Part shown: positions 16,433-56,357 of the stretch, in pieces
Layout of the letters: each line of letters opens with the position of its first letter
Position numbering within the stretch: position 1 is the first letter of the stretch
Assembly (NCBI RefSeq): GCF_963853765.1
Contig: NC_088862.1
Location: forward strand, 5,952,001 to 6,016,000
DNA from: Magallana gigas
Taxonomy: Eukaryota
DNA: 64,000 bases
Reading direction: 5' to 3'
The notes under the pieces: generated by a model
The model's input: only the letters and a program-made list of their open reading frames with translations
Databases searched by the model: none
What the model was told of the DNA's origin: nothing
Position numbers and translations under genes: made by a program

Positions 16433-16926
16433 GTACAAACTTCAAAATGTTGTTGTGTGTCCATTAAGTTTAAAACAGTAGTTCAGAGTTTGATTCACAT
16501 GTTATTTAAGAAATGGTAAAAATATATTTTCAATTGTGTAAATCCTGTGTATAAATTGCTGCTATAATATTGTATAGAGAGTAGTAGCGTTTACAAGCAC
16601 ATGCCACCTCCAAGGCCCCTCTGTTATCACAAGCCATACTTTAAGCTTTGTTTATAAAGGCTACATTGCAAATTTACCAACTGATGAAAAAAACGTTCCC
16701 AAGAAGATGCAAGAATACACTTGGTCGATTCAATAGAGGGAATTACAATGTTGTACGTGAATCAACTAAATAAAAATGTCCACACTCAACTTACTCCTGG
16801 CAGAATTGCAGAATTGGTGAATTCTCAGCATTTGACAACATCTATGGATTATTTACAAACTGGACAAGACTAAACATGAAAATACAAACTCTTGCTCACG
16901 ACCTTTAAAACAAAAAGGTCTAAAAA

Positions 16927-19673: not shown

Positions 19674-21120
19674 CTAGACTATTGTTGCTATAGCAACAAA
19701 GAGGTCTTCCATTACTCTTGTATTAATCTGTACAAAACATCCATTTATCTTGTAAAAAAAATGGATATTATATATACTTTAAAAGAATTCCCAAGAAATA
19801 AAAACAAAAAAACAAAATATCAATTTTTTGAGTGCTTTTTGTGACGACCGGAAGTTGCGCCGGATCATACAGAACAAAGTAAAAATATCTTCATACATTG
19901 TTTTGTTTTTCCTCAAAGTTTGGATGTTCAAACTTTTGCTTGTTATAATATTCCGTTGAAAAAATGTTTTTCTCTCGGGACCGGAAACGAACGAACGGAA
20001 GTGATTATGAAATTGAAAATACACATTTTAGTACATATACCTACGATTCGTTACTATTCATCAAATTGAGTAAAATGTTTTAAAAAATCTAAAGTTACAA
20101 AAAATGCTTTAGCTTGAACGCTTCGAGTGAGAACCGGAAGTGACGTACGACCAAATGAAACCCGTTAAACACATGTTCAATCAAATGTCCATTATCCATA
20201 CAAGTTTTGCGTCTTAATCTTTCACAGTTTCTGAGATCTTGCGAGTACTTTGTTTTTTTTTTTAAAAAGAAGGCTACCTGAGATATTTGAGATGTTTTAT
20301 CCGAAGTAGGACTTTTTATGTTTTTTTTACCATGTGTAGACGACCTTTTCTAAATTTATAGCTAAAATGTTACTTCCTTGCTAAGAACCAACATATTTTT
20401 AAAAAATCAGAATTGGGTGAACTTGCTGTGACGACCGGAAGTAACGCCAAACAAAACAAAATAGTGTACACACATGTACATTCATAGGTCTATCACCCCA
20501 CAAAGTTTGGTTGTTAAAGCTTTACCGTTTTTGAGATCTCGTCGAAATTAGGTTTTTTGTCTCGGGACAGGAAACGGGCAAACGGAAGTGCTGAATGATA
20601 ATTTAATTTTTTTATTTCTTGTTTTCTTGCCTATCTTACATTATTATTTGTCGAAGTAACTAAAACTATCGAATGAAAACAGTTGAACGGATAAACAGCT
20701 TGATTTGTTACAACCCTTCCGGTGTGGACCGGAAGTGACGGTCGACAAAATGAAACTGTTTAAACATATTTTCAATCAAATGTCTAATATCATAAAAGTT
20801 TTGTTTCTTGATTACATACAGTTTCTGAGATCTTGCGGGTACAAAATATAATTTAAAAAAGCTCTCTGAGATAATTGAGATATCTCACCGGAAGTAGAAT
20901 TTTTTTGTTTATTTAACATTGCATAGATGACATTTGTAAGGATCTATACTAAAATTTTTATTCTTTGGAAAATAAATTAATTACTTAAAAATAAAATTTT
21001 TTAAAGTGCCTCCGGTGACGACCGAAAGTTACGCCGAACAAAATAAAAATGTTAAAACACATCTACAACTGTAGGTCTCTCATCCCTCAAAGTTTGAATG
21101 TTCAAGTCTTTATCGTTTTT
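19674..21120 (+). mobile_element. Helentron/HINE-like composite repeat, copy 2 (3' truncated)
   Basis: Same head sequence at 19674; collinear with copy 1 apart from the nested MITE. Confidence 0.6.
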
Positions 21121-26763: not shown

Positions 26764-27479
26764 TCTAGTCCTGGTTCTGCCATATTGTAATGATCATATC
26801 TGATATTGAATGTCTAATACTAATACATGCTAATGAAAACTGATATCTTACTGTTTTTTTCTGATAATTGCTGGTTGAATTCGGCAACTATTCAAATTTT
26901 GTTGACGTGGTAATGATTTCGTTTCAAACTGATACTAATTGAGAGAGACGTTATAATTATTAAAACTATATTTCTAATTCTAGAAAAAGTGAAACAGAAT
27001 ATATTAATGAAATGAAATGAATATCAAGCAGTAGTAATAAACGAGCATATTTTTATTTTATTATCGATAATTATCTTCGAAGTTTTGAAAATTTAAAATT
27101 TAAAATCAAAATAGCATATAACACAGGGATCCCTGCTAAGGAATAAGTTCATTGCAAAGTTTAAAAAAAAATAATTTTTATCTGCTTGAACTTATTAACT
27201 TCTGAAGCACAAATCAATCCCAAAACGCGACGAAAACCTTTTTGAAAGATGGTATGTAGTTTTTGAATGTGGTAATTGTCGGAATTACCCATCATTTCAA
27301 GTTTGTCTGAACTCACATTAATTTTGACCTTTTTGAAGATATGTTATATATGTGCGTAACATATAAAGCAATTATTGAACAGTCATGATACATGATACCC
27401 CTAATATTTTGCCTGACTATTTGTGATAATGCTATTTATGGAGTAATTCTGCCAGTGTTCATCAGAACACGCTCCAACA

Positions 27480-28240
27480 GCTTTGCTATTTTGCTGGTAT
27501 TAAATACAGAACAAGCTAGGTAACAGTTCACAATTTATTATCTGCCAGCACAGAATCAATATACAGATAAATGTCAATTTCTTTATGACAAAAGCAACAA
27601 CCATATTAACCACAAAGTCCATGGGTGTTAAGAAAGGCCACACTGTCCTTGTTCTGCTATGGAAAGTCTGGGGGTCCACCGAAATACCAACACGCAAAAG
27701 GTGCATAACGGACAAGACGGGGGCCTTTTGTTGATCACAAGTGCCAGAGATGTCCCATGCTTGATAAATGTCATGTGGACGGGGATGAGTCGAGACATGA
27801 CTGTTTACCCGGTTTTCCGGTGATTGCTCCCTGGTATATACTCGTACTTGCTAACCTTGAGTACACCCGGTGAGCCTCCCCCCTTTTGTTAGAAGGTCGA
27901 GGGGGTCCCAAGTATGGCGTACTACTTGTGAACCCCAATCATTAGCACATGGGATGCCAATTTCCCAACACATATACACCGGCCCTCCGCCTAATTGACA
28001 GATGGGGGAAAACACACAGGCCAGACGTGTCCCGAAAAGACCTCCTATTAGGTCCCCCAGGACCCGCCACGAACATTGGTATAATGTTCTCCAATACCCA
28101 CACACACAAAAACCAGAAAAGAAACAATTACACCCCCCCCCCCAAAATGAGATGCGTTGCTAAACCAAAATTGTCTTAGAATTCCCTGGCCGTGTTGGAT
28201 ATAAATGTGAACAAGCCCCCTCCCAAGTTTTTGATGTACA
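27480..28240 (-). mobile_element. Probable terminal/3' portion of the DIRS-like retroelement whose gag lies at 54775-55620
   Basis: GC-richer block with a TATA-like site. It becomes contiguous with 54303 onward once the ISL2EU element and one AT TSD are removed. The left boundary is uncertain. Confidence 0.4.
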
Positions 28241-28322
28241 ATAGCCGATTTCCGAGATCTTATCGTCTTTACTGCGGAGGTAGAAAAGTTGCTGTCACGT
28301 GATCATTTGTTAGGCATAAAAA

Positions 28323-30562
28323 ATGGCAGATCAGCATCTTCATATCGGTGCAAAAACCGTCCCAGAATTACGCATTTTTTTGAGAGAAAGGGGGATCAGT
28401 TGTAATGAATATAGAAAGTTCACGTTAGTCAGGTTGGCTCAAGTCGCACTAGAACTTCAGTTACCGATCATTGTCGCGAAAGACGACTACAAAGTCATGA
28501 ACTTGAAACGGCGCACCATACAAAGTCTTGATGGAGAAGAAATTGTCGCCCCAGATATAACGACTATTATAAGTCGCTTTACAAAGAATCTTAAAGAACT
28601 TCCTTGTCTGGAAATATGCGATGTGTTGATATATTTGCTGCGATGTTCTGCCTGGTCAGATAACAGATTAAAGAATTACAGACAAGACAACGGCTATAAA
28701 CTGTACAAAGATGGACACATTAGTAATGTGCAGATGTACACCATTCCAAACTCAGATTATAATTACGTTTCGGCCACATGTGTTAGGGAAACAACTTTAA
28801 GCGAGAAACCGTATATTATGTGGATATTACAGGAAAAGGATGGCCAAGTAATTTCTGCTGGATGTGCATGTGTTGCGTAAGTGTTTATCACTACAGTACT
28901 GAATAAAAAGTTTAATGCATTACAAAATTATGTCAATAAAACATAATATTCATCAACACATATTCATTTAGTAATGTTTACACTGAATTTGCTTTTAAAA
29001 TTAGTGGGAAACTTATAAGACATGTACGGATCGGGGGGGGGGGGGGGTCCAGACCCCCTCCCCCTGCAAAATTCTTTTCTTTCTTTAAATTTTTTAAAAA
29101 TTACATTATATACTCACCAAAAATATGTCTTGGACCCCCCCCCCCCCCATAACCGGCAAACTCAAATAACCGTCGGACCCCCTCCCCCCCTGAAAAAAAT
29201 TTCTGGATTTGTGCATTTAGGATCTACATTTGCAGGGATGTATTGTGTATTGCTCATTGTTTTCAAAGTGGGGGGGGGGGCACTAATGACAATTTAAGGA
29301 GGCCTGCCCTGCTACATGCTTGATAGTGTAAAGATTTTCCAAATGTATTGTGATGTTTTATTTAGGAGCACTTTTCATTGTTTTGTAAATCAGTATAGAT
29401 GTATTAGCAAATATACACACTTTACAATTCAGATTTAATCATTTTTAGGGATGATGGAACGTGTAAGCACTGCACAGCTTTACTGTTTTCCTTGGCTGAT
29501 TTTTGCACTCACCATATGGACAGGAAGACACAAGTAGGAACAGATCGCCCGTGCATATGGGACATACCTAGAAAAGTGTCAGTTCCCACAAAAATTGATG
29601 ACCTTGATGTTAGATACGATAAAACTAATCCGTGCATTGCACCTACTTCTGCACCTCTTCTAAAGTTCATGAACAATCCTTGCGAGATGAAGAATGTCAT
29701 TTGTATAGATTGTGTAAAGGATCGGATTCTTTACTGCTTCATGTTCTCGAACCTCCCTCAGATGACAGTGATGAAGAAATAAAGGATGAGCAGCCACCAA
29801 ATATGACAAACCATATGAGTGAATTTATAAGAGAGAAAGTTAATACAGATTTTCTTACCTTTTTGAAAAGCAAATGCGATATAAATTTAATTAGTAAAAT
29901 TGAAATATTAACAAAAGGTCAAGGAAATTGTACTGAGTGGTTCAAATATCGTGAAGGCAGAATCACTGCCTCTCTTGCATTTTCTGTGTGTCACTTTAGA
30001 GATTCAAACAAAGAAGATAATTATATTGTAAAAAAAATCATGAACTCCAGCTCTGTGCCCCTTTTAACTCCTGCAATATGGAAAAGAGCATGAAGCAATC
30101 GCTCGACTTTTATACCAGGAAAATTATAAAAAAGAGCACATAAAAGCCCATATTGTTGAAAGTGGATTACATGTGTCCAAGCAATATCCATACATGGGTG
30201 CCTCGCCAGATGGACTTGTGCAATGCAAATGCTGCGGGAATGGACTTCTAGAGATTAAGTGCACATATACACACAAAGACTTATCTCCAGATGAAGTTGC
30301 TACAAGGGGCAACAATTATTTTGTTTATATGGACGACAACAACAATGTTAAGTTGAAAACAAACACATCTTGGTATTACCAAATTCAGACCCAGCTTGGT
30401 GTGTGTGACAGAAAATGGTGTGACTTTGTCTTTTACACACAGAAAGGAATATCTGTCGACAGAATTTCTTTTGACAATACCTTATTTGAAATGATTGCAT
30501 CAAAATCAAATTTCTTCTTCAACAAATATGTAATTCCTGCTCTTAAAAAGAAGTACAAATGA
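28323..30562 (+). CDS. ISL2EU ORF2: SAP-like + SWIM zinc finger + YqaJ (lambda exonuclease-like) protein, frameshifted as assembled
   Basis: Exon 28323-28876, intron 28877-29448, then 29449-30562. CACVA/DDGTCKHC is a SWIM motif. TKGQ..W...REGRITAS, GASPDG..EIKC and YYQIQTQL..CDFV are YqaJ motifs. Frameshifts near 29660-29740 and 30085. Confidence 0.85.
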
Positions 30563-31013
30563 AATATTAAAACACAATAACTTGTACCGGTACTTTGTTT
30601 TATTATTTAATTTTGTTTAATACTTGTGCACTTTTACAAAAATGTTCAAATTTATCACAATTCAAATCTGTGAAAAATTACAACCAATCAGCATGACAAT
30701 TTAATAGCTTTTTATCATGAATAAACAATACTCTTAAAATTTTCAAGAAAAATCAATACTTAAAACTTCTCTTCCAAAGAAATAGAAAATATGCCACTCT
30801 CTAAACAAGTTGTCACACTGACCAATGCAGACAGCGCATCATTTAATTTCAGCTTTTAATATAGATAAAGTAAACATAAAAATGTAACACAAGTTCAGAC
30901 ATAAACAACATCGCTGTTTATTAATACCATGATAACATGCAAATACCTAAATACAAAAACTTACAATAAGTTATAAGCATCATAATTATTCACTTAATAC
31001 ACAGGTGATACAT

Positions 31014-33284
31014 CTAATTTTTCACAAGAGGTTTGTCAATATTGCAGAAAAATGCAGCAACTCTTAGCATTTGATTACAAATAGGTTTTAATTTCAATGG
31101 AATAATATTTGAGAGTAGTTTGAAACACTTTAGTCTTTGTATTGTCCTTTCTACATGAATTCTTAAATTTGCTATTTTCTAGTTTTCCTTACTTCGCTAG
31201 CATTCAAACGTTTTCCTTTACCCCAAGGACACTTGTGAGTAAAAGGAGGAATGTTAAGAGTAGCTCTTCTCAAGGTCAAAAGGTCCCCAATGTTAAAGCC
31301 ACGATCAGCCATTACCTCATCGAATGGGTCTATATTATCTAAAAAGGAACTATTCTCGGTAATATACCTATCTGATACATTTCCAGACCACAAGTCTGAA
31401 ATATAGTTAAATGCACCTGAAGGGGTAATGATTACTAGACACTTGAAAGTGTTATGATGTTTGTAAGAGCTGTTGGCTGCTGACTGACAAGTAGGAGTTT
31501 TTGGCTTCTGAACAAATAATTCTGTGCAGTCTATAATAGCACAACTCCTAGGGAACGATTTCTTAAATGATTTTGGGATGTATTTGATATTTTTTTTCTC
31601 TAGACTGCCATTTAATACGTGGACTGAAAACATCGTGCATATATGATATCCAGGTAGTAAAAATTTGGGATACCCGGGTCTTTGAAACACCAAATAAATC
31701 TGCAAGAACAAATCCTACTATTCCAAGTCTTAGTCTAACAAGAGTTAAAATGAATTCCTCATAGGGACTGAGCTTCCGTTTGGGTCCTGGTTTTTTACCT
31801 TCCTCTTCATACTTCATATCACCGACAGATTTTTTTCCTGACCAGTATTTGAGTTTGCATTTATCTGATTCTATTGATGAAAACAATCCATCCAAAATAG
31901 GTTTACTGGGTAACCCTGTGTAATGTTTCACTGAAACATCGGACTTGATGACATTTTCTAAAAAACAGTCTCGCAACAATGCTTCTTTGTCAGATAGTTT
32001 TGCTTTCATCTCTCTGGTTTGCTGCTGCAAGAGTTCAATGCCCTCTCCTGTGAGATCTGTTTGTGTGGACATGTCAACAGGTTCAGGTCTTTCCCAGCTT
32101 TTTTCTTCAGACATGTATGAATGATCATGATTCACAACACCTACAATGATATAAATTTAGTGAAAAGAGCGATTTGCATATACTGTTGCATCTATGTTTA
32201 AATTTAAAACTTTCGTAGATAAAATAATTGCAGTATTATTATTTATCATTACAACATTTTATAAATGTAGCCTTACTGGACTTTGCTGCTATTCCTGGCA
32301 ATTTTCTGGATCGAACATGAGAAACTGTGTTTTCACCTTTAACAATAAGAAAGAGATAAACAATACAATACCATAAACCTGAGTTAGATGTGCAATTTAA
32401 AACATCAACTATAATGGTGTGCGACTAGTTCTCACCGTGTACCATTTCTTGCCAGTGCATTGTTACCGGTACCTCATTTTTCGTATATAATTTTGTGTTG
32501 ATAAAATGACGTAACAATGCACTGGCGAGAATGGTACTCGGCGAGAACTGGTCACACTCCAGAATATATATAAGTAAAGTTTTACTGCAACTGGTCAACT
32601 ACATGGGTATCAAAAGATCCGAGACATATATTTTTGATTTTACCTTCCATAACTGCAGTTACAATAACTTCTGCTGCAACTGGTGGTGCATTGAAAAGTT
32701 CAGTCTCAGTTGTATTATCATCCTGAAGTTGATCAAGTCGAGCAGAAGTGATGTTTCTTTTTTCTACAGCATTCTGTGGTCTCTCCTTCAAAGGGCGCAT
32801 GAAATTATTTCTTGGAAACAATGTTGGGATTGGGTTACACTCAGTAGGTCTTCCATCAACAAAATGATTAGAACACACCCGGTGATGTCTTTTTGGTTCA
32901 AAATTCTCTCTATTAATCTAGTAAATCAGTAAAATATTTGTATTCAGATAAATGGTTTATGGAGAAAATTCGGATTGACAGTTTGTCATGTTTACATTCT
33001 TTAAATCTAGAATAACCGACATTAATTTTCTGATTAAGATTTGCAAAATAACTGATTGGAATTTTATATACGTCAATAATTAAGTATCTTGGCTTGCTTT
33101 TGCAAAAACAATGTACCTGAGAGATCCACCGCTTTCTAATTTTATTGTTCTTTAAGCGGGTGGGAAACGGGAAAAAATCGACTCCTTCCATTGCAGGATA
33201 CTTTTCCAGGTTCCGCTTTTTACGTCCGTCTGACGTACAACCTGGGACAACACACCAGTACTTGGAAATATTTGGTTTAGCCAT
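31014..33284 (-). CDS. ISL2EU ORF1: THAP + HTH + Harbinger-type DDE transposase, frameshifted as assembled
   Basis: Exons ~33284-33117 (CVVPGC...FFPFP...RW), 32917-~32586 (VCSNHF, THAP) and ~32143-31014 (LTLVRLRLG..LADLFGVS; IIDCTE; MADRGF; RIHVERTIQRLK). Frameshifts in homopolymers at ~31590 and ~31173. Confidence 0.87.
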
Positions 33285-33316
33285 TAAACAAATTGTCCAC
33301 AATTATGACAATATTA

Positions 33317-33491
33317 TGGTGTTTATCTACCTAACACTATCTATATAATAACCGTGGGTTGCCCCGAACTCACCTATACATCTTCGCATGTAGCTGTCAG
33401 CTTCTGGAATCATCTGCACGAGCGGATTCCCGCCCTTTGACGTCATGGCTACTAGGTAGCTCGTACTAGAAATGGTTCCACGAACACCACA
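33317..33491 (-). repeat. Gypsy 3' LTR (175 bp, TG...CA)
   Basis: Three substitutions relative to the 5' LTR at 43134-43308. Preceded on the minus strand by the polypurine tract GAAAGAAGACGGAGGGGAG (33510-33492). Confidence 0.93.
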
Positions 33492-33852
33492 CTCCCCTCC
33501 GTCTTCTTTCTGGGGAGCCAGTCCCACCTACAGGTGGGACCACCGATCTTCAGGGGGGCAATCACGCCCATCCCAGCAACAGCCGGGATAACATGAAAGG
33601 GAACCTGGTCCCACCTACAGGTGGGACCCACAATCAGGGTGGCGCTACAACGCCCATCCCAGCAACAGCCGGGATGAAAATCAGCCGGGCGGCCAAGGCC
33701 ATATCAAAACTGGCCTCCGCCCGTAGGGGTGATGGTAGCTCACCCTACCACTCCTGGAGGATCAGGATGTGCACCCTGCGAACTCCAGGGTAACCCCGCG
33801 GCATCTCTGCCAAAACATACCCCCCGGTCAGGGCTCCAGGAGGGGGACGAGG

Positions 33853-34851
33853 TTACTCCGGGTTGGGGGCGAAACTTGCTCCTGCTCCCGGGCGCCAGGG
33901 CTCCCAAAGGACTAGGGAGCTCTCACTCTGCTCCGGAATGGGAATTTCCCCCACCTGGGGGGCATCCCTCCTTTGACTGGCCTCATCATCATCCGGACGG
34001 GGGTCAGGTTGGTCCAGGAGGCGTCGGGGTGGAGTGGCATCCCCATTGCTGGCGGCTGGTGGGTCGACGACCACTCCCCTAACCGTCGGGGCAGGAACGG
34101 GAGGGACAACCAGGTACCGCAGCCCATAGCGATACAAGGGGTGCCCGGCAATTGTCTCGTCCGAAAACAGGGCCCGGTAAGCCCTGCGTAACGCCGGGCT
34201 CAACCGGGAGACAAGGTATACCTGCACCCTCCAGTGCAGCAGCAGGGCAGGGTGGAGCACGCCCCACAGGCGGTAAACGCGGGGCGGGCTCTCCTGCACA
34301 AAATGGCACAAACTGTCCATGGCGTCTCTAAAGTCCCTTGGAACACCTGCACTAGGTTCCCGGAAAACCTGGAAAGTGGACACACTTTGCACTAGGTCAG
34401 TCAAGGTGGCCCAGCTTCCAATGAGATGGTCCGTCAGCCACTCGCACACCCTCAATCTCATAGAGGTGGCCTCATCCCCCAAAGGCACAGACCTACGGAA
34501 CACAGGGTGGAGGTGGTAGAGGGTCACATGGTCCCTCAGCTTGTGTGTCCTCTCTGGACAGTTGGGAAAGGGACAGGAAGAGAGAGGTACCGCCTCCTGT
34601 GGTGAAGTGGGCCGTCTCCTGGGTGGGCGGGACCTCTGGCACCCGGTTCCTCATCGTCAGGCGGTGATGGCGGCTCCACAGGGGGGCCAGCCATCAGGTT
34701 TCCTCCGTCTTCGGGTTGGGAGGGACCTCTTGCACCCGGTTCCTCGTCATCAGGCTGCGATGGCGGCTCCTCAGGGGGGCCTGCAATCGGTGCCCTTTCA
34801 TACCTCCACTCCCGGCGGGAGGAGGCGTAATCATCGTCGCTATCGGAATCT
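33853..34851 (-). CDS. Gypsy accessory ORF3 of unknown function (acidic/Pro-rich repeats, C2H2-like finger, then ~220 aa)
   Basis: ORFs 34536-34898 and 33853-34527 join through a one-base shift in a CT tract near 34585, giving CPFPNCPERTHKLRDHVTLYH. A strong splice-acceptor-like CTTGTCCTCTTTTTCAG lies just upstream of 34851. Confidence 0.6.
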
Positions 34852-37800
34852 CTGAAAAAGAGGACAAGACGATTAACAACCCCCCCCCCCCAACACAATT
34901 AGGGCAAACAAATTGCTCCAAGGTGGAGGCCTCCTTAGAGGTGACACCCACACACAGACCGTGAAACCATTCATCACAATGATCGCACTGTACCATCAAC
35001 TTCCTGTCGTCCGGGCGCCGACAGGTACAAAACACAATCTCATTAGAGGGGTCCGGACACGAGAGGCATGTGGGTGAGGCTATGTTAAGTCGCTTACAGG
35101 GACGCCCCCGACGTCTGGGGGGCAGGGGAGGACTGTCAAGAGGCCCTCTGGCAGCAGGGGAGCGCTTAGGGGGCCGACCTCGGTGTGGCCGCTGGCTGGG
35201 GGTGGAGTCCAGAGATTCGGGAAGCTTGCGGGCGCCCGCCGCCCCGGCAGGGGGGCTGGGAGCCAAGTCGCTCCCGGTCTCCTGCTTGGTACTCCCAGAG
35301 TTCTCGAAGTTCTCCCTTAGCCGAACTAACCATTGGGGGATGTCCCTGTCGACACACTTTTTCAAGCGGTCGTGATTGGCCACCATGACTGCCGACTTGG
35401 TCTTTACTCGGTACAGATGGGGGGTCAGCTTCTTGACGATGATACCAGGGCCCTTCCAGGACGGGCTAAGCTTGCGGCCATTTCCCTTCACCGTCGCAGT
35501 GTCCAACACATACACAATATCTCCTTCCTCAAAGGGGCGGGTGGCGGCCTTGACGTCGTAGTCTCTTTTCATCCTCTCCTCAGAGGTGTGCAAGCGCCTC
35601 CTGGCCGTCTCGTGAGCAGTCAGTATTTTTTCCTCAAGAGCACCCACATACGTGTCAATATCTGCAGGGCCCTCCTGCATGGGGGACCTGTACATAAGGC
35701 TGGCTGGCGTGTTGACCTCTCTACCCAGCATGAGTTTGTTGGCAGTGAACCCTGAATTACGGTTGACTGCTGAGCGCAAAGCCCCCGCTATCTGGGCCAG
35801 ATGTTCATCCCAACAGTCCTGGGCCTTATCGATGTAACACCTAACTGCATCCATAAGGGTCCTATTGTAGCGCTCCACCTGTCCATTGGCAGACGGACGA
35901 TAGGGGGTGGTGCGGGCCTTATGTATTTCCAGGAGATCGCACACAGCAGTGAACAACTTACTCTCAAAGTTGCGCCCCTGATCGGTAAATATCTGAAGGG
36001 GGCAGCCGAACCTAACAAAGAATTCGTCCACTGCCGCTGTGGCCGTAACCTCAGCTGTCTGGGAGGGGAGGGGGACACACTCTACCCACTTAGTAAACTG
36101 GTCCACCATTACTAGGACATACTCATTCCCCTTCGGCGTCTTAGGGAGCGGTCCCAAGAAGTCGAGGTGCACCCTCTCCATGGGCGCCCCGGCATGATAC
36201 TTTATCATTTCTGCCCTGGCGTGGCGCTGTGGGCGCTTATTTCTACTGCAGGGGCCACAAGTGCTAACAAACCTCTCAGTCTCCCGCATCATCCCATACC
36301 AGTAGCAATGCTCTCTCAGCCGGGCCTTAGTGCGCTCGATACCTTGGTGTCCAGCCGCCGGTACATCGTGGCAGAGACGCAGAACCTCTCTCTTCAGCTC
36401 TATGGGGACGACCAGAACTTTCCTTCTCTCCCCCCTCATCTATTTCTTTCCAAAGGACCCCATCGTTGTCCAACCGCAACAAACCCCTGTTGATATAGTA
36501 ATGTTTGACAGCTGGACTGGCTAGGAACAATTTACCTTCCTCTGGCTCCACATCTCCCTGCAGCCAATCCAAGATTAGGCTAAGCTCTGGGTCGCTTAAC
36601 TGGCTACGGCTCATCTCCTCGGGGGTGAGGCCCACCAAGGAAGGCGGGCCAACCAAGCCCTCCGAGGAAATTCCCATGACACAGGCAAACTGGGGGTGAT
36701 GACTTATCTGGAATTGAGACTGGCATGGGCCATCTGAACTACTCTGACCCTCACAGTCGTCTTCACTGATCCGGCCCAGAAGCTTCTTGGAGACATAGTC
36801 CAGTGCTGCCTCGCTGATAGAGGGCTGGGCTTCTTCTCGGTCACCTATGACGGGGCTCTGATCCTCTGTAGGGCTAGATTCTTCCCCCAACAAGGGGGAA
36901 TATGTCCAACTACAAGGCCTAGCTAGAGGGGCCACATCATCAACTTCTTCCGCAAAAGCCATCCAGGACTAGTGGGCTCTAGTACACTTTGGGCAGCCAC
37001 CACAAGGCAAATCACTGAGGTTAACGGTGAAATCCACCCCCTACACCTGGATGGGGGTGGCGGTTTGGACAGTGCGTCGGCGTTCACATGGCGCCTACCC
37101 GGTCTATGCTGGATCACCATATCGTACTGACTAAGCTCCTCGAGCCAGCGAGCAAGCTGATCTTGAGGGTACTTGAAGTTGAGCAACCAAATAAGGCTAT
37201 GGTGATCCGTGCGAACGATGAATTTACGACCAAGCAAGTAATGTCTGTACATGCGCGTAAATCTGACAACTGCTAGGAGCTCCTTCCGGGTAGTGCAATA
37301 CCTCCTCTGTTCGGCTGACAGGCTGAGACTACCGTAGGCTATCGGCTTTTCTTGCCCGTCCTGGATCTGTGAGAGCTCAGCACCTATCGCCCCCGCTGAC
37401 GCGTCAGTGTCCAGTACAAACTCGCCCTCTGCAGTAGGGAGGGCAAGGACTGGAGGTGAAGTGAGAGCTTTCCGGAGGGCCTCAAATGCAGTCCGCTGCT
37501 CTGGTCCCTATACAAAAGGTTTCTTCCCGGTGACACTGTACAACGGTTGGGCAATCTGGGCAAAGCCGGCAATGAATCCCCTGTAATAGTTGGCAAAGCC
37601 GAGGAACCGCTCCACATCCTTCACCGTGGCAGGCGTCGTCCAGTCCTTAACAGCCTCTATGTACTCTATGTACTCATCCCCCATCTCTACTCCGGTCCCG
37701 CTCACCTGTCTCCCCAAGAACTCCACACGTCTACGGAACAGCTCGCATTTCTTGGGCTTAAACTTTAAGTCGTATTCACGGAAGCGCTGAAACACTATCC

Positions 37801-39200
37801 TCAGATTGGCTAGGTGATCCTCAAAGTCACGCCCAAGCACCAAGGCATCGTCCAGGAATGCCAGGACTATACTCCATGTAAGCCCCCGCAGAACTAAGTT
37901 CATGGAAAGCGGAGTTTGCATCCAGCTTAGAGAACCAAATGTTCCCTGAGAAAGTGTCTAAACACTCGTCGATCAATGGGAGAGGGAATACATCCTTCCT
38001 GGTAACGTTGTTCAGCCTGCGGTAGTCCAGGCACCATCGGACTTGTCCATCCTTCTTACGGATGAGCACCGGCGCTGATGCCCACTCAGACATAGAGGGC
38101 TGAATCACTCCAGCGTCCAGCATTTTCTTCAGACGCGCCTCTTCTTTATCTACAAAGAATGCTGGTGTACGCCGCATCCTCTCCTTGATAGGCGCCGCAC
38201 TGCCAGTATCGATCTCATGCTCTAGAGCAGTAAAGTTTCCAAAGTCAAACTCGCTCTGGGCAAATACATCCTGATATTCTGACAACAATTCAGCGAGCTG
38301 GGACTGCTCCTCCTCACTCAGCTCCGCAGAGGATCGTTCTAGCAGATCCTGCAAATGGGCGGGCACCTTAGGGTGGGATCTCCCAGGCTCACCCTCAGCT
38401 AAACTCCGGACCGCTCTCCTAGGGCAGGGCGCAGGCACATGCAAATCAGCCTCAACTGCCTCTCCCAGGAAGCTCCCTTCCTTCAGAGTGATATCCTTTT
38501 CCGAGGCGTTCACCAGGCAAGCCATAGAGGCATCTCCAGCAGCATGGTAAGTATGGGGCATAAGCAACGCCTCTGACAACTTCTCTATACCCGGAATGGT
38601 CATGAATTCCGACAGACTCCTGTCCAGCTTGAAGGGGCACAATACAGCTGAGCCGGCACGAACGCAGACCTCGCGCACTAGCGTCATGCGAGCAACGCTC
38701 TCCGTCTCACCTCTACCATAGGTCATCTGCATCTCTTCCCCACATAAGTTTATCACCCCGAGCTCCAGGTCCATCTTGGCTTTGTGTTCCCATAGGATGT
38801 CCATTCCCAACAACATCCTGTACTTAAGAGGGGCCAAATAGAGATCCACCTGCTGAGTGTGCTGGTCCACACCAAGGTCAAATGGGCCAGCAACAAATCC
38901 CTGGAGATGGGCTCCACTTCCGGCTTGCAGCAAAGTGACCTGTCTCTTAATGGGGGGGCCTTGACTCCAAATTGTCATAGAACTTCCTCCCAAGTACACT
39001 CACTTCTGCCCCGGTATCCACCACAGCTTCAATGGGGGCTCCCTGGATCCTCAGCTTTATGGTAAATGCCGTCCGTGGGCAAAGCTGGCTTACTGTAACA
39101 CACAACTCCCCCTCCATAGGGACTGCCTGTGGGTTCGAAGGCGTCCGACTTCCATCCTCGCTGTTTCCAGGGGGTCCGGACTCTAAGGTCGTATCCTCCC
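34694..39200 (-). pseudogene. Gypsy pol: protease, RT (internally deleted), RNase H, integrase + AT-hooks + PHD finger
   Basis: VVDTGA (protease); WASAPVL..RWCLDYRRLN, FLDD (RT); DTDAS..ELLA (RNase H); CH..GH..C..C, LDF, TDQG, QVER (integrase); PHD C4HC3 at 34893-35032. Several frameshifts. Confidence 0.92.
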
Positions 39201-39559
39201 TCGGCGGCTCCTGCAGCTCCAGACTGTGGTCTACTGGAGTCAGGATCTCATCAATAGGAACCGGAGGTTCCTCCTCTTTGGTCAGCAGCTCCTCCACAGG
39301 AAAGGGTTCAGGTATGGGTTGATTCCTGAAACGCACTCCGAATCCACCACGCCGCTTGGAATGCTTAAGGCAGGAGCGACGGGTTTCCCCTGACTGACCA
39401 AACTCTGGCTTCACACTCTGCAGGTCCTCTTGACTGTCGTCTGTTCTCTGTCTCTCCAACCCAACATCGCGGTCAGGCGTCAGCGTACGCACAGTCCTTG
39501 GTGGCTGGTTGTCTCTCCCTCCCCTGCCGCTATATCTGGATCCTCCGGAAGTGCCTGGT

Positions 39560-42500
39560 CTCACCACATTTAAAACATTGGCTAGCTCGGGGTGCCACCG
39601 GCCCTCCTTGTGGAGGAGGTGGCGGTGACGGAGACATCGGGTCTGCTTGGGCTATACTACTCTCCCTTAAGGATGACGTTTACTCAGAATGAAAAAAAAA
39701 TTCCACTGATGATAATGAAACCCCATCTATTGTATGTTATAGACCTTTGATTGTAGTGTTATTTTTCACTTTCAAAAAAGTAGGTCAATGACCTACTTTT
39801 TGAGTAAGTGGCCATTGAATATTTTTTCAAAAATCAAGAAAAATCCCATAAAATTTTACACTACAATTGAAATTTTATTAATTGTAAATATATTTCAAAT
39901 AATAAAGCACTTTAAAAAGTGTAATACATTTTATGAATGGCAGTGGCACTAAATAGGTACAAAACATTAAGATTTCAGCTACAATTTGAATAAATATTCC
40001 AGTCCGAATTTCCTCTATCAGTTTTCAAATTCCTACCCATTTTTTATCTAAGTTTACAAAAAATTGAATGATGATAATACAAAAACATTTATAGCATTGA
40101 ACTACTTATATTGACCTTATTCTGTTGGCATAAAATTTATATGATGTTCATGATCAAAATTTTGAGATATGGTGTCTTTTATCGTTTTTAAGCATTTTGT
40201 AATATTTTTGCAATTCGTGCCATACAATTATTTTAATGAATAAGTGAGGTAAAACCAGCAGAAAATATGAAAAATTATATTGACTAAAATATAAAATCTC
40301 AACTGTCAATATTAGAGTACTGCCAAAAATGTTTTAGCGGAAAACAAAATCTGCAAAATTTAGTCAGAATTTCCTCTGTTTGGCTATACGTCTATTTTTG
40401 TTTGAGCCTAATTGCATAATAAAGTAAAAATATCAAATATTTTGTCAATAATAATTCATTTTATTAATACTTTTTTTGTTTAGAACAAATTTTACTCATT
40501 ACATTGAACTTTATAACAATCCGAATTTGAGAACTCAACCCTGAGTAAACAACACCCTTAAGGCATTCTCCAACTGCTGCAGGCGGCTCTTGAGTTCCTT
40601 AATCTCATTCTCCCCTTCACCATCCTTCTGGCTATCTTCAGCTACCTTATCTTCAGCTACCTTGTCCTTATCCGCCATGGCCCTAACCGCCTCCCGCTTA
40701 GGCTTGGGGGGTCTGCTCTGACGCGAATGCTGGAAGTACTGCATGCGGTCGACAGCTTCCTCCACAGTCTTGGGTTGGCCATCCAAAGCGTACAAACCCG
40801 CCTCCCGGTCCTCAGCTCCATAACACAGACGCGGTATAGCCTGGGTATGAACATCTGGTAGCTGGGGGAATGCACGAGTAGCCAAAGTGAGCACTCTGTC
40901 AGACCACTGTCGCAGGGACTCACCACTATTCTGGGTCGCTGATTGGAAATTAAGTTGATGAGTGAGGTCTGGTGCCGATGAGCCAAAGCGCTTGTCGAAC
41001 TTCCGGAGTATTTCGCTGAACCTCAGGCGGGGGGTAGTCTCTAGCATCAAGGTGTAATACTCACTGGCCGGGCCCTCCAGGAAGAAACAGAATTGATCGT
41101 GTTGCTCGGTCTCATTCCACTGTTGGCTGCGCGAGAAGCGAACAAACTTATGGAGGAAGGCTTTCCAGTTGGACTTGCCATCATAGCGGAGATCCTTATA
41201 TCTAGGTCTATTCCGGACGGTCGGGTGACTGGAACTGGCTGGCACTGCGGTATAGTCTTGAGGATTGTACTGCATCGCATGCAGCTGCACATCTCCAGGT
41301 GAGCCATAGGTCGCGACGGGCGTCTGCGAAAACTCGGGGACCCCACGAGACACTACGGATGACCGCGCGTACTCCGGGGGTGCGTGATACGTTGCGGATA
41401 ACCGCGCGTATCCATGGGGACTGCAAGACGCAGCGGGAGTCCGCGCGTAACTTGCATTGGGATGAGGGCGCGCTGCGGATAACCGCACATGTTCATGGGG
41501 ATGGTGAGACGCTGCGGAGATCCGCGCGTACTCAGGGGGACTGCAAGACGCAGCGGGAGTCCGCGCGTGACTTGCATGGGGAGGTACATCCCTAGCCGGG
41601 GGCTCATATTCATGGGGTACTGGGACATATGTATGGTCACCCAGGGGATGGGGTTCCCCAGACAAGGGCTCATGATGCTGTGGCTGGACTTGCGCTATTC
41701 TACCTCCCTCTCCCCCCAGGATTGTTGGGCTGGGTGGAGGCCACAGGTGTTGGGACCGCATAACCTGTAAAATACTGGTGGCGTCCTGACATTGGCCCCC
41801 CCTGCGCAGTTAAATACCGATCATCCCGGGGCTGGGGTGTGGGGTAATAACAGCTGGGTGCAACCGGCTGGGTTACAGCAGTGCACATGCGCACACCAAA
41901 GGATCCCTGTGAGGTATGGACCAAGGACTCCTGGACCCTAGTGGCAAGGTACTCCCCCCCCCCAGGGGGAGGATGGCGAGGCACCCCATGAGGGGGCCTA
42001 CTACCTGACATTGAGTTACTATTTCCAGGGTCAGGGGTAGGCTGAGCAAGTGAAGCTTGGGGTTGAAAATCAACAATCTGGGGTGCATGTGGCAAATCCA
42101 CAAGCTGCCCTTGGCTTACATTAGCAGGGTCCTGGGGATGGGTGGTGGAACTAGTAGGGCAATAGCTACAGGGCTGGGGTGTGGGCTGGTATGCAGGCCT
42201 GACAGGCCCGCCGGGCATGGGGTTGGAGGGGGACGGGGTGATGGGGGAATCAAGGTCTAGCAGGTGGGGTCTCAGGTCCCCTTGAACATGAGGCGGATGC
42301 AGCGGGGTGACTCCAATGGTATCCTCAGGCCCTCGGTCGACAGGAACATCCCTAACAGTTGGGTCACACTGACGGGTAAGGGCCACATGGGAACGACGTG
42401 ACATGGGGACCCCTACATAATCGCTGGGCGGGACAAATTCCCTATAACCAACTGGTGAACTGCATCTAACCGAAGACCCGGGGGACACCCCCGGCTGAAT

Positions 42501-51455: not shown

Positions 51456-54247
51456 ATTGAAATTGCTGTGATGGGCGCTTCCATTAAACAGTGAGTGCCA
51501 GGCCTACTGTGCGGAGCATTATGGGTAGGCCGGAACCAGGCTAAGTGTGGTGTTCGTGGAACCATTTCTAGTACGAGCTACCTAGTAGCCATGACGTCAA
51601 AGGGCGGTAATCCGCTCGTGCAGATGATTCCAGAAGCTGACAGCTACATGTGAAGATGTATATGTGAGTTCGGGGCAACCCACGGTTATTATATAGATAG
51701 TGTTAGGTAGATAAACACCATATTGGCGCCCAACGTGGGGCCCTGAACTCACGGTATATATTAGACAGGAAAATTTTTTTCCCGCAAAGTGTCAAAGCTG
51801 TTTATTAGGCGTTTTCGTGTTTTTTTCATAGATATACGGGTGTAGCCGCCATTTTGGGGGCCCGCCACGTGCTTAATTCGTGAATTTACTTTCACCTTTG
51901 CATATTTTGTGCATAGTTTTTTCGTTTAAAGTTTTATTGCATTGTTGATAGGTATTGTTTTTTGCATTTAGCACATATTTCTGCATTTTCTCGCATAGTC
52001 TGTGTTGATTTTGACTTCGAACATTTTTGTGTATTGCACCATTCGCTCGTCATGAATGTTTCGTTTGAAGAGGCTTTGCAAGCCTTGGGGTTAGACGACA
52101 CTTTAACTCCCGATGAGGAGTTTGGGTATATTAGTGGCAGACATCATGGCCCAGATAATGTCGGTTTTAGAACTCCGGGTGATATGGGTTACTGTGCTCC
52201 GAGCACTGTTAGGGTAGGTCAGGCTGCCGGCCCATCCCGCTTTCAAGGGGGGCAGGCAGGCTATCCCCAGTGTGGGAGGGGGATTTGGCAGGGTACAGTA
52301 AGGGAGCCAGAGGTCACTGTGGCACACTCTGTTGTGCCTGGGCCAGCCAGTAGTATTCAGCCGGGGGTGTCCCCCGGGTCTTCGGTTAGATGCAGTTCAC
52401 CAGTTGGTTATAGGGAATTTGTCCCGCCCAGCGATTATGTAGGGGTCCCCATGTCACGTCGTTCCCATGTGGCCCTTACCCGTCAGTGTGACCCAACTGT
52501 TAGGGATGTTCCTGTCGACCGAGGGCCTGAGGATACCATTGGAGTCACCCCGCTGCATCCGCCTCATGTTCAAGGGGACCTGAGACCCCACCTGCTAGAC
52601 CTTGATTCCCCCATCACCCCGTCCCCCTCCAACCCCATGCCCGGCGGGCCTGTCAGGCCTGCATACCAGCCCACACCCCAGCCCTGTAGCTATTGCCCTA
52701 CTAGTTCCACCACCCATCCCCAGGACCCTGCTAATGTAAGCCAAGGGCAGCTTGTGGATTTGCCACATGCACCCCAGATTGTTGATTTTCAACCCCAAGC
52801 TTCACTTGCTCAGCCTACCCCTGACCCTGGAAATAGTAACTCAATGTCAGGTAGTAGGCCCCCTCATGGGGTGCCTCGCCATCCTCCCCCTGGGGGGGGG
52901 GAGTACCTTGCCACTAGGGTCCAGGAGTCCTTGGTCCATACCTCACAGGGATCCTTTGGTGTGCGCATGTGCACTGCTGTAACCCAGCCGGTTGCACCCA
53001 GCTGTTATTACCCCACACCCCAGCCCCGGGATGATCGGTATTTAACTGCGCAGGGGGGGCCAATGTCAGGACGCCACCAGTATTTTACAGGTTATGCGGT
53101 CCCAACACCTGTGGCCTCCACCCAGCCCAACAATCCTGGGGGGAGAGGGAGGTAGAATAGCGCAAGTCCAGCCACAGCATCATGAGCCCTTGTCTGGGGA
53201 ACCCCATCCCCTGGGTGACCATACATATGTCCCAGTACCCCATGAATATGAGCCCCCGGCTAGGGATGTACCTCCCCATGCAAGTCACGCGCGGACTCCC
53301 GCTGCGTCTTGCAGTCCCCCTGAGTACGCGCGGATCTCCGCAGCGTCTCACCATCCCCATGAACATGTGCGGTTATCCGCAGCGCGCCCTCATCCCAATG
53401 CAAGTTACGCGCGGACTCCCGCTGCGTCTTGCAGTCCCCATGGATACGCGCGGTTATCCGCAACGTATCACGCACCCCCGGAGTACGCGCGGTCATCCGT
53501 AGTGTCTCGTGGGGTCCCCGAGTTTTCGCAGACGCCCGTCGCGACCTATGGCTCACCTGGAGATGTGCAGCTGCATGCGATGCAGTACAATCCTCAAGAC
53601 TATACCGCAGTGCCAGCCAGTTCCAGCCACCCGACCGTCCGGAATAGACCTAGATATAAGGATCTCCGCTATGATGGCAAGTCCAACTGGAAAGCCTTCC
53701 TCCATAAGTTTGTTCGCTTCTCGCGCAGCCAACAGTGGAATGAGACCGAGCAACACGATCAATTCTGTTTCTTCCTGGAGGGCCCGGCCAGTGAGTATTA
53801 CACCTTGATGCTAGAGACTACCCCCCGCCTGAGGTTCAGCGAAATACTCCGGAAGTTCGACAAGCGCTTTGGCTCATCGGCACCAGACCTCACTCATCAA
53901 CTTAATTTCCAATCAGCGACCCAGAATAGTGGTGAGTCCCTGCGACAGTGGTCTGACAGAGTGCTCACTTTGGCTACTCGTGCATTCCCCCAGCTACCAG
54001 ATGTTCATACCCAGGCTATACCGCGTCTGTGTTATGGAGCTGAGGACCGGGAGGCGGGTTTGTACGCTTTGGATGGCCAACCCAAGACTGTGGAGGAAGC
54101 TGTCGACCGCATGCAGTACTTCCAGCATTCGCGTCAGAGCAGACCCCCCAAGCCTAAGCGGGAGGCGGTTAGGGCCATGGCGGATAAGGACAAGGTAGCT
54201 GAAGATAAGGTAGCTGAAGATAGCCAGAAGGATGGTGAAGGGGAGAA
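50959..54247. repeat. Right arm of the 3.3-kb inverted repeat (Academ TIR + third LTR copy + PBS + truncated gag)
   Basis: Duplicated ORFs in the track (51962-53155 vs 41700-42893; 53094 onward vs 41761 downward). Identity stops at 54247, 53 bp before the ISL2EU right end. Confidence 0.96.
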
Positions 54248-54774
54248 GGTGCGTAAAATAAAAACCAATACGGTAAAACAGAGCATCCCGGAAAACGGCT
54301 ATTCATTCCCTGCTCGTGACAGGTGTGTGTCGTCGTGTCTAAATGATTGCGTAAACTTTGCTAACATGTTTCAGTGTGAAATAACAGCCCCTCCCAAATC
54401 TAATACAATCGATAGCGTGGCCTGGTTTTGTGAGGAACAGACTGCTGGGAGAGATGAAATTGGGCGAGTGATGGACCTCGGGTGTCAAATGTCTTGCCCT
54501 TTCTGGGTTTAAGACCTTTGATTGATTTGGATACAAGAAAAGACTTAGTAGTGTCGTGCTGTGCCTAGTTTATGATTGAATGAAAAAGCACATAAATAGA
54601 GTTCCACTGTCTTAGCCGAGTATTTCTGAATGGACAGGTATGCAATGAATGTGAGTAATGTGTCAGAAGGTATGGGCAAGATGTCTGTGAGGTTATAGAG
54701 ATCAAGGAAAATGTGATTTTTTTTGTAAGCTGTACTGTAGGCTAGTTTGGAGTTATGTGACAGTGATGTGTAAA

Positions 54775-55620
54775 TTAATCGCAGTTGATTGCTGCGTGGG
54801 TTCCGTCACAATACTTGCAGCTGTGTTTAAACCTGCAATGTGGGTAAAAACGACATTGTTTACCGCTGTTGTATAAGTTGCAGAAGTAGTTATTGCATAT
54901 TGTATTTGGTCGACGTTGATATTTGATGAGAGAGGTGTATGGATTTTGAGGCTGGTCAGAATTTAAAGGTGACTTGTCGTTACCGACAAACAGCAGCCAC
55001 AATTTGGTGTTGATTTGACCCCATGAGGTGTGGGGGTCTGACGCTTTCCTCAGTCTAAATTGTTCATCGTACTTGTACCAACCAGTGGATTTAGATGCCG
55101 AATGCGGATATCCCGCATATATTTCAACAGTTTCTGTTCTCTTGTACGATATTTCTCCAGCATAACGCTGGAAAAAATAATAAAAGCAGTTGTCCATTTT
55201 TCAATAGAGAGGAGCAAGTTGGTATTTTGCTTTACCAGGCACATTTTACCTTCCCTGATTTGCAGTTCCCCTTTTGATTCAATTTCATTAGCGAGTTCTA
55301 TTGTGAACTTGAGGAGGAGTGCCAAATCAATGAAATTCCCCTCCCAAAACTTTTGCTTAAGTTTAGGGGGGATATGGCCGCCAAGTGGGTCAAAAATAGT
55401 TAGTTTGAACAGGTTGGTAATCATTTATATCAAATAGATTAAAATTGGATTCCTCCACAACTGAGGGGATGTTAAAAGACTCACTGGCTTGCTGTGGTGG
55501 TTGCAGTCCCTTTTCTATATGTGTGGACATAATGGAAGCAGGCACATTGACAGTGTCTGAGGACGTTGGTGCTTCATTGGGTTCGAATGTCTGAGTCCTT
55601 CGCCTCCCTCGTCCCCTGGC
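54775..55620 (-). pseudogene. DIRS/Ngaro-like (tyrosine-recombinase retrotransposon) gag remnant
   Basis: IPPKLKQKFWEGNFIDLALLL...LSIEKWTTAF...LKYMRDIR / GWYKYDEQFRL...LW...C-rich CRFKHSCKYC..H tail; one frameshift; no RT or recombinase seen. Confidence 0.65.
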
Positions 55621-56357
55621 TGGTGCCAGTTTTTTTTATAAATCATATTTTATAGAATATATGTATTGAATATATGTATTTCATATCATATTTTTAAAGC
55701 AATCCTTGGGTTTTTTCCTTTTTTTAATTTTCTCTTGATATTATTAAACGACAAAAATTAAAACTTTTTCTATTCAATATAATTGTTTTGGAAATAAAAA
55801 TGTTGTTTATACAACTCTATTTACATGTACATCATCAACTATCATCATTGAATAAATTTGCGACCCTTCTCGGAAGCAATCTAATAACTGCGCATGCGTG
55901 CACAGCAAACTTCCCATCTGACTTAGTTTCAGAATGCAGCAAAAGACATATCAATGAGAATTTTAATAAAGAATAATGTAAGAAATAGGTGAAAAATCAT
56001 TAGATATGTGTAAAATTGAAGATATTTTACTGTTAAATTAGATCAAAAGTTTATGAATAGTATTACTTGACGCGGATATGTGGTCATCCGTGAGTCATAT
56101 TCTTTTGAAGTGAAAATCTTTGTTATATTCTTACAATTTAAGAGAAAGAGTTTTCTTACACTTATCAATAACTAATTATTATTCAAAAAATTTTTTTTTT
56201 CAAAATTGATATTCACTCTGCCCGCACACTTCATTAAACAGTTGTTGTTGGGGTTTTTTTTTAATATAGAATAACACAAATGGTGTGAAAGATAAACTTT
56301 ATTTCTGTCTATTTGTCAGTGATCAAATAATGGGTGCATTTTGGATTATTGCTCATA

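What the first reader, a model, noticed from the sequence alone, without database searches (positions are those of the whole stretch)
40608..54247. 3.3-kb near-perfect inverted arms around AcademH: TIR-primed copying of flanking DNA
The arrangement is C-Academ-C'. The 2.7 kb left of Academ (gag, PBS, 5' LTR) reappears inverted on its right, seamlessly extending the 585-bp TIRs, and there is no TSD. One model: a broken right end invaded the identical left TIR, copied outward through the LTR and gag, then rejoined the ISL2EU end. Alternative (sister-chromatid) transposition would also fit. The result is a foldback-like 13.6-kb unit with back-to-back LTR and TIR promoters in each arm, and a likely dsRNA/piRNA source. 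The one substitution and one indel between arms argue weakly against a pure assembly artefact.
Basis: partly seen in the sequence, partly recalled or inferred. Interest (0 to 1): 0.7.

Follow-up and report, generated by a model that had tools for sequence, protein, structure and literature searches.

The report
Transposon end copied into flanking DNA
In an oyster genome a DNA transposon has the same 2.7 kb of neighbouring DNA on both sides in mirror image, likely because one broken end was repaired by copying from the other end and the copying overshot; related transposons in this genome keep their two ends matched, which hints that such end-to-end copying is routine for them.

Summary
Observation confirmed. 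Arms 40608-43895 and 50959-54247 differ by 1 substitution and 1 indel in 3,289 bp. They consist of the natural 585-bp TIR of an AcademH-type transposon (43311-51543) plus 2,703 bp of the adjacent Gypsy 5' end. There is no TSD, and the copy is joined without microhomology to the correct distal flank, an ISL2EU end that has lost 31 bp. Most likely this is a real, recent repair event: the right end paired with the left TIR, synthesis overshot into the flank, and the product was end-joined. No read spanning the junction was found; the source's own reads were not identified, so an artefact is not excluded (~0.13). It is rare: 0 of 43 other paired-end Academ sites show it. Side result: in 11 elements of three sister AcademH families, 57 variable TIR columns agree between the two TIRs of each element and 0 are side-specific. 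One element carries a 10.7-kb insertion mirrored in both TIRs inside a perfect TSD. The mechanism class is known (fold-back, Galileo TIR extension). The dsRNA/piRNA claim is untested.

The parts
27372..28242 (.). Left part of an unclassified host repeat into which ISL2EU inserted (AT at 28241-28242 duplicated)
   Evidence: 4 of 4 other copies fetched (L040, L042, L045, L055) continue from this part into 54301+; empty site printed for L040 and L045; no Pfam hit for its two left-part ORFs
28243..33314 (.). ISL2EU-type DNA transposon, main body (YqaJ on +; THAP, HTH_Tnp_4, DDE_Tnp_4 on -)
   Evidence: Pfam; other copies L057-L061; the name ISL2EU rests on domain content and AT TSD, recalled
33315..43308 (-). 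Gypsy-type LTR retrotransposon: 3' LTR 33315-33491, pol in several frames, gag, PBS 43113-43130, 5' LTR 43132-43308; LTRs differ at 3 of 177 sites
   Evidence: Pfam rve, Integrase_H2C2, RT_RNaseH, PNMA; LTR ends and 4-bp TSDs from six other LTR pairs
39671..40557 (.). 887-bp non-autonomous insert with TTAA duplication in gag (Kolobok-like, label recalled); ends 50 bp before the arm starts and is not duplicated
   Evidence: absent from other Gypsy copies; ends read
40608..43310 (-). Left arm, flank part (template): 5' gag, PBS, 5' LTR and 2 extra bases
43311..43895 (+). Left TIR of AcademH-type element, 585 bp; holds an ATG plus splice-donor-like motif at TIR position 89 (inferred first exon)
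   Evidence: other animals' reads or contigs continue from it into the interior (X24, X18)
43865..44585 (.). Three 203-bp tandem copies (starting in the last 31 bp of the TIR) and a 125-bp palindrome
44916..48804 (+). Academ-type transposase gene in several frames; DUF6589 at 47211-48575
   Evidence: PF20231 E 5.4e-39; the upstream ORFs have no Pfam hit
48998..50842 (-). Superfamily-2 helicase gene
   Evidence: DEAD E 2e-16; Helicase_C E 0.0023, below cut-off
50959..51543 (-). Right TIR, identical to the left
   Evidence: same position in the truncated C5 copy; contig depth doubles over it in run X15 (13.6 to 27.6)
51544..54247 (+). Right arm, flank part: inverted copy of 40608-43310 in place of the TSD
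54247..54248 (.). New junction: gag joined to ISL2EU end, 0 bp microhomology, no filler; 31 bp of ISL2EU and the distal Gypsy TSD are missing
54248..54300 (.). Orphaned ISL2EU end (53 bp)
54301..55625 (.). Right part of the host repeat

Best explanation
Shown: the order of nesting, the exact register of both TIR-flank joints, the blunt distal junction with 31 bp lost, and the youth of the event (2 differences in 3,289 bp against 3 in 177 bp between the Gypsy LTRs). Inferred: the initiating break (one-ended cut by the transposase, or excision followed by gap repair in which the new strand folds back on its own TIRs), the priming in the left TIR, and end-joining as the exit. It is a dead-end rearrangement, not a mobile unit. 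It likely represents an overshoot of the TIR-to-TIR copying that keeps AcademH TIRs matched in this genome.
For: (1) Both TIRs adjoin the same flank base, including 2 bases that are not the expected TSD; copying gives this, two independent joints would not. (2) The far end rejoins the correct flank within about 35 bp of the expected point, with no N in the window. (3) The TIR is naturally 585 bp, a ready inverted template. (4) In 11 elements of three sister families, 57 variable TIR columns are concordant within every element, 0 are side-specific and 37 are discordant; in 36 of those 37 only one element is discordant. (5) The element at C9:27,148,932-27,179,566 has a 10.66-kb Harbinger-like insert at the same base of both TIRs, 10 substitutions and 2 indels in 10,707 bp, a private insert of about 950 bp in one arm and a perfect 10-bp TSD: very probably a real long TIR-to-TIR copy. 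(6) At the one substitution the right arm has the state of 9 of 9 other Gypsy loci scored and the left arm differs, as expected of a later mutation. (7) Precedent: repair of TIR2 from TIR1 with overrun is proposed for Galileo (PMC3573991, Discussion); fold-back at inverted homology leaves a single-copy spacer (PMC3907307, abstract).
Against: No read or contig that bridges 54247/54248 or the LTR-TIR joint was listed in the 5 distinct runs laid (tables are truncated), and no listed run held more than 0.55 of the junction stretch's words. These look like other animals, so reality rests on the assembly alone. 0 of 43 other paired-end Academ sites show a kb-scale mirrored flank. Zero microhomology gives no positive sign of the exit step. 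The 2 bases between LTR and TIR match the polypurine-tract side of a 3' LTR rather than the expected TSD, which this model does not explain. Large near-perfect inverted duplications also occur at 2 of 7 loci of a MULE family, so they are not special to AcademH.
Confidence: 0.65

Rival explanations
1. Assembly artefact: a wrong exit through the 585-bp TIR, a chimeric read, or a switch between two haplotypes that each carry the Gypsy 5' end on only one side of the element.
For: Arms nearly identical and one of two differences is a homopolymer length; no bridging read seen in other animals; several other giant inverted duplications in this assembly; many frame breaks in the window's elements could be consensus errors.
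Against: Needs a homology-free jump that lands within about 35 bp of the true flank; chromosome-scale assembly (29 contigs) with no N in the window; the 7-kb unique spacer is unlike adapter-loss palindromes (own knowledge); sister-family transposase frames of 562-664 aa are open; the C9 mirrored arms carry a private insertion.
Confidence: 0.13
2. Recombination between the left TIR of one sister chromatid and the right TIR of the other gave an isochromatid fusion that broke 2.7 kb beyond the element and was rejoined to the distal fragment (a breakage-fusion-bridge route to the same product).
For: Gives the same exact register and a blunt, homology-free distal junction; the route is described for human inverted duplications (PMC3907307 abstract).
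Against: Needs recapture of the matching distal fragment with only about 35 bp lost; these events usually end in terminal deletions or translocations (same abstract).
Confidence: 0.1
3. The structure formed during insertion: only the left end was integrated, and the right end was made by copying the left TIR in place, with synthesis running on into the target.
For: No trace of a TSD on either side; TIRs of young sister elements are matched as if reset at transposition; one older element (duplicated at C10:20.08 and 20.13 Mb) lacks a TSD and has a 7-bp mirrored flank.
Against: 38 of 43 other sites have a direct TSD with at most 2 mismatches, which needs two-ended attack; loss of the TSD is equally explained by later repair.
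Confidence: 0.08
4. Alternative (sister-chromatid or hybrid-element) transposition catalysed by the transposase.
For: Known source of inverted duplications (10.1101/2020.01.07.897926, section 15); products with the new junction at a terminus exist in this genome (C2 Academ; C8 MULE).
Against: Predicts a terminus joined to a new target with a TSD; here both termini share one flank base and the new junction is 2.7 kb away, without TSD.
Confidence: 0.04

Closest known systems
AcademH DNA transposons (9-10-bp TSD and helicase per a passage in PMC10045372; the defining paper was not held)
   Same: Helicase and transposase genes facing each other, long TIRs, 9-10-bp TSDs in the family's short derivatives
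   Different: This copy has no TSD and a mirrored flank; genes are in several frames
Galileo TIR extension in Drosophila mojavensis (PMC3573991, Discussion read)
   Same: Sequence next to one TIR is copied in inverted orientation next to the other; break repair from the other TIR is the proposed cause; TIRs of one copy are 98-100% identical
   Different: Galileo recruits internal sequence and stays a bounded element; here the copying ran outward into host DNA and removed the TSD
Fold-back inverted duplications with a single-copy spacer (PMC3907307, abstract only)
   Same: Two inverted arms, a single-copy spacer, inverted homology at the spacer's edge
   Different: Homology is a 585-bp TIR, the arm is only 2.7 kb beyond it, and the distal chromosome is kept
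Maize Ac/Ds sister-chromatid transposition and composite insertions (10.1101/2020.01.07.897926, abstract and section 15)
   Same: Transposon-linked inverted duplication that can yield dsRNA
   Different: There the new junctions lie at termini with 8-bp TSDs and the arms are transcribed as a hairpin; neither is shown here

Membership tests
AcademH | Encodes a helicase | tested here: met
   DEAD E 2e-16; Helicase_C below cut-off
AcademH | 9-10-bp TSD, family level | tested here: met
   12 of 13 short derivatives with the same termini have a 9-10-bp TSD with at most 2 mismatches, 8 exact
AcademH | 9-10-bp TSD, this copy | tested here: not met
   9/9 and 8/10 mismatches; read as lost in the rearrangement
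AcademH | Academ-type transposase | tested here: inconclusive
   DUF6589 E 5.4e-39; its link to Academ is recalled, no named Academ protein was compared
Foldback / mobile 13.6-kb unit | Transposon termini and a TSD at the outer ends of the arms | tested here: not met
   40608 lies inside gag, which runs on uninterrupted; 54248 starts the ISL2EU remnant
Alternative-transposition product | New junction at a transposon terminus with a TSD | tested here: not met
   junction 2,704 bp from the right terminus, 0 microhomology, no TSD; contrast C2 locus
Fold-back inverted duplication | Single-copy spacer bounded by inverted homology | tested here: met
   7,063-bp spacer between identical 585-bp TIRs
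Fold-back inverted duplication | Adjacent terminal deletion or translocation after a dicentric stage | tested here: not met
   distal flank kept, 31 bp plus TSDs lost
Hairpin siRNA/piRNA source locus | One transcript or convergent transcripts across both arms, with small RNAs | not tested
   the single run search was asked for DNA; 0 listed holders on record as RNA
Ty3/Gypsy LTR retrotransposon | LTR pair, PBS, RT-RNase H-integrase order, 4-bp TSD | tested here: met
   the distal TSD of this copy is missing

The most novel reading that the evidence does not exclude
AcademH elements remake one TIR from the other at or near every transposition, so that their TIRs behave like retroviral LTRs (identical at insertion, diverging afterwards), perhaps through a paired-TIR panhandle intermediate handled by their own helicase. 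The window's locus is that copying step caught overshooting into the flank, and the 10.7-kb insert mirrored in both TIRs at C9 is its footprint inside a TIR. That would give the unexplained helicase a job and give these DNA transposons an insertion clock.
Probability: 0.35. Interest if true: 0.8.

Novelty: new variant of a known kind. Interest (0 to 1): 0.52.

Why it matters
The locus alone shows that a long-TIR transposon can likely duplicate kilobases of neighbouring DNA in mirror image without its transposase making the new junction; that is a route to inverted duplications and possibly to silencing loci. The wider pattern matters more. TIR pairs in three AcademH families are matched within elements (57 concordant columns, 0 side-specific), while the two oldest copies keep 1.5% and 2.7% differences between their TIRs, which suggests that matching is tied to transposition rather than going on continuously. 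How AcademH moves and why it carries a helicase are, to my knowledge, open; a marked-TIR assay would test this directly.

Tried and rejected
Junction reads: one run search listed 24 runs, best share 0.55; five distinct runs were laid in two calls; they show the families, not this allele, and cannot prove absence. A full-length sister of the window's family: the only other long copy (C5:19.79 Mb) lacks its left 3.7 kb. A long-TIR control from another superfamily failed: the two MULE families fetched have TIRs of only about 50-70 bp, my script picked non-homologous repeats, and its column counts are meaningless and discarded; so it is not shown that TIR matching is special to AcademH. A second independent Gypsy insertion was rejected. 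The C2 Academ locus first looked like a second case but is a copy inserted into its own sister with 9-bp TSDs plus a flip. Hairpin potential at the arm's start was weak (-4 kcal/mol). The lost 31 bp are nowhere else in the window. Survey limits: 19 loci were fetched from 42 transposase matches (93 of 176 candidates scored); 6 of them gave no pair of termini; of 63 termini, seven short pairs without loci were not read and 8 ends had no partner within 10 kb; the 43 sites include segmental duplicates; C1:8.77 Mb was left out of the TIR alignment as a duplicate of C1:8.51 Mb. Literature: ten searches listed no paper on AcademH TIR homogenisation or on outward TIR-primed flank copying, but the defining AcademH paper and most subscription journals are not held. 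Earlier findings of the scan: none.
Full report
Setting. The window is G000:C10:5,952,001-6,016,000 of a 564-Mb, 29-contig genome. Runs that share its repeats include oyster-labelled samples, so I call it an oyster. The finding lies in a nest of five elements: an unclassified host repeat (27372-28242 and 54301-55625; empty sites), an ISL2EU-type transposon (28243-33314 and 54248-54300), a minus-strand Gypsy element (33315-43308) with a TTAA-flanked 887-bp insert in gag, and an AcademH-type transposon (43311-51543). Domain calls are from Pfam; the family names ISL2EU, Kolobok-like and the link of DUF6589 to Academ are recalled.

Observation. The arms are as described: 3,289 columns, one substitution, one indel. 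The inner 585 bp are the TIRs (0 mismatches). That length is natural: the truncated C5 copy has the same right end, contig depth doubles over the TIR in run X15, and reads of X24 and a contig of X18 continue from the left TIR into the interior. The outer 2,703 bp are host DNA. The eight close Gypsy loci compared are 95.7-96.9% identical to the arm, so the right arm is a copy of this locus.

Junctions. Six other Gypsy LTR pairs show 4-bp TSDs. Here the 3' LTR has its TSD half, but the 5' LTR is followed by 2 bases and then the Academ terminus. Those 2 bases differ from the expected TSD at one position and equal the bases that precede 3' LTRs. They stand at both Academ ends. This may be a point change, a remnant of a tandem Gypsy, or a trace of a donor locus; I could not decide. 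The family's short derivatives have 9-10-bp TSDs (12 of 13 with at most 2 mismatches), as published for AcademH (passage in PMC10045372); this copy has none. At 54247/54248 gag is joined to the ISL2EU end with no microhomology; three intact ISL2EU copies printed show about 31 bp missing. The event is young: 2 differences in 3,289 bp against 3 in 177 bp between the Gypsy LTRs.

Is it real? Not proven. The best of 24 listed runs held 0.55 of the junction stretch's words, and in five runs laid only loose ends were listed at the LTR-TIR joint and no bridge at 54247/54248; the tables are truncated and these appear to be other animals. For reality: an artefact must leave through the wrong TIR and return, without homology, to within about 35 bp of the true flank. 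I put the artefact at about 0.13.

Genome survey. Of 43 other sites with both Academ termini resolved (13 short derivatives of this family; 15 longer elements; 15 short derivatives of sister families), 38 have a TSD with at most 2 mismatches and none has a mirrored flank longer than 7 bp. So the event is rare. Two loci stood out. At C2:34.68 Mb an element is inserted into its own sister copy with 9-bp TSDs: a transposase-made product whose junctions lie at termini, unlike the window. At C9:27.15-27.18 Mb a 30.6-kb element with a perfect 10-bp TSD carries a 10.66-kb Harbinger-like insert (DDE_Tnp_4) at the same base of both TIRs in mirror orientation, with 10 substitutions, 2 indels and a private insert of about 950 bp in one arm. 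Copying from TIR to TIR is the simplest reading; a second targeted insertion is possible (my estimate 0.2).

TIR matching. I aligned both TIRs of 11 elements in three sister families (5, 3 and 3). Of 94 variable gap-free columns, 57 agree between the two TIRs of every element, 0 are side-specific and 37 are discordant; in 36 of the 37 only one element is discordant. Within an element, TIRs of young copies differ at 0-6 of 370-1,125 sites, while same-side TIRs of sisters differ at 2-35; interiors differ by 0.4-3.0%. Independent left and right lineages, as plain cut-and-paste predicts, would give side-specific columns. The two oldest copies keep 17/1,125 and 10/370 differences, and one copy has a 1.36-kb insert in one TIR only, so matching in place is slow. 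I infer that matching is coupled to transposition or to transposase-made breaks. Limits: few elements, one genome, the C2 pair comes from a nested dimer, and my control with another long-TIR superfamily failed. That control did show that giant inverted duplications also occur at 2 of 7 loci of a MULE family, which lowers the surprise of long arms as such.

Mechanism. Shown: nesting order, shared flank base at both termini, blunt distal junction, youth, and TIR matching in sister families. Inferred: a break at the right end; pairing with the left TIR by strand invasion or by fold-back of a newly made strand during gap repair; 2.7 kb of overshoot; end-joining to the resected distal end (0.65). 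A sister-chromatid fusion and break gives the same product (0.10), as does copying at the moment of insertion (0.08). Alternative transposition fits badly (0.04), since it puts the new junction and a TSD at a terminus.

Function. The unit has no outer termini, so it would not move as a whole. Both LTRs point outward and would give the same gag strand; the ATG-donor motif in each TIR points inward. Double-stranded RNA would need a 13.6-kb read-through or antisense transcription from the orphaned ISL2EU end, which now faces the right arm on the opposite strand (inference). No RNA data were examined.

Comparison and papers seen. Galileo TIR extension (PMC3573991: passages and whole Discussion) is the closest model but recruits internal sequence. 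Fold-back duplications (PMC3907307: abstract and outline) share the spacer architecture. Maize sister-chromatid transposition (10.1101/2020.01.07.897926: abstract and section 15) differs in junction position. PMC9587614 (passages) added nothing. The defining AcademH paper was not held and may already comment on TIR identity; ten searches listed nothing on it. No supplements were read.

Verdict. Observation confirmed; probably a real, recent, TIR-primed inverted duplication of flanking DNA; a new variant of a known kind. Interest 0.52, lifted by the TIR-matching pattern, which makes the role of the AcademH helicase testable.

Noticed in passing
G000:C9:27148932-27179566 (L151, L112, L113, L152): 30.6-kb AcademH with perfect 10-bp TSD and a 10.66-kb Harbinger-like insert mirrored at the same base of both TIRs; one arm has a private insert of about 950 bp, the other a 31-bp tandem duplication
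   Followed up: yes
11 AcademH elements on C1-C6, C9, C10 (L108-L141): The two TIRs of each element match each other better than they match sister copies: 57 concordant, 0 side-specific columns
   Followed up: partly
G000:C2:34676704-34693545: AcademH inserted into its own sister copy (9-bp TSDs inside and outside) with the middle flipped between 5.8-kb inverted repeats; the whole sits in a short palindromic element that has its own 9-bp TSD
   Followed up: yes
G000:C8:11059315-11086220 and C4:54870490-54904885: Giant inverted duplications of a MULE-family element (12.8-kb arms at 99.94% with a 186-bp spacer; about 15-kb arms at 99.3-99.9%); at C8 the new junction is at a terminus
   Followed up: partly
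G000:C10:20.08 Mb and 20.13 Mb (L140-L141, L205): Older AcademH copy (duplicated) with no TSD and a 7-bp mirrored flank offset by one base; perhaps a miniature of the window's event, perhaps chance
   Followed up: partly
window 43309-43310 and 51544-51545: Two bases between the 5' LTR and the TIR match the polypurine-tract side of 3' LTRs, not the expected TSD; unexplained
   Followed up: partly
window 39671-40557: 887-bp TTAA-flanked insert in gag; the mirrored arm stops 50 bp short of it
   Followed up: partly
many loci (L084-L107, L161-L187): AcademH derivatives of 47-122 bp that are little more than two TIR tips forming a palindrome, yet carry 9-10-bp TSDs
   Followed up: partly
window 53046-54512 +: The copied gag frame stays open across the new junction into the ISL2EU end and host repeat (488 aa stop to stop)
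   Followed up: no
window 34694-36439 -: The Gypsy integrase frame carries a C-terminal PHD finger (E 3e-10)
   Followed up: no
window 8573-10267 and 16924-21120: Diverged repeats with a period of about 587 bp, direct and inverted, continuing in the next 10 kb beyond the window (L034)
   Followed up: no
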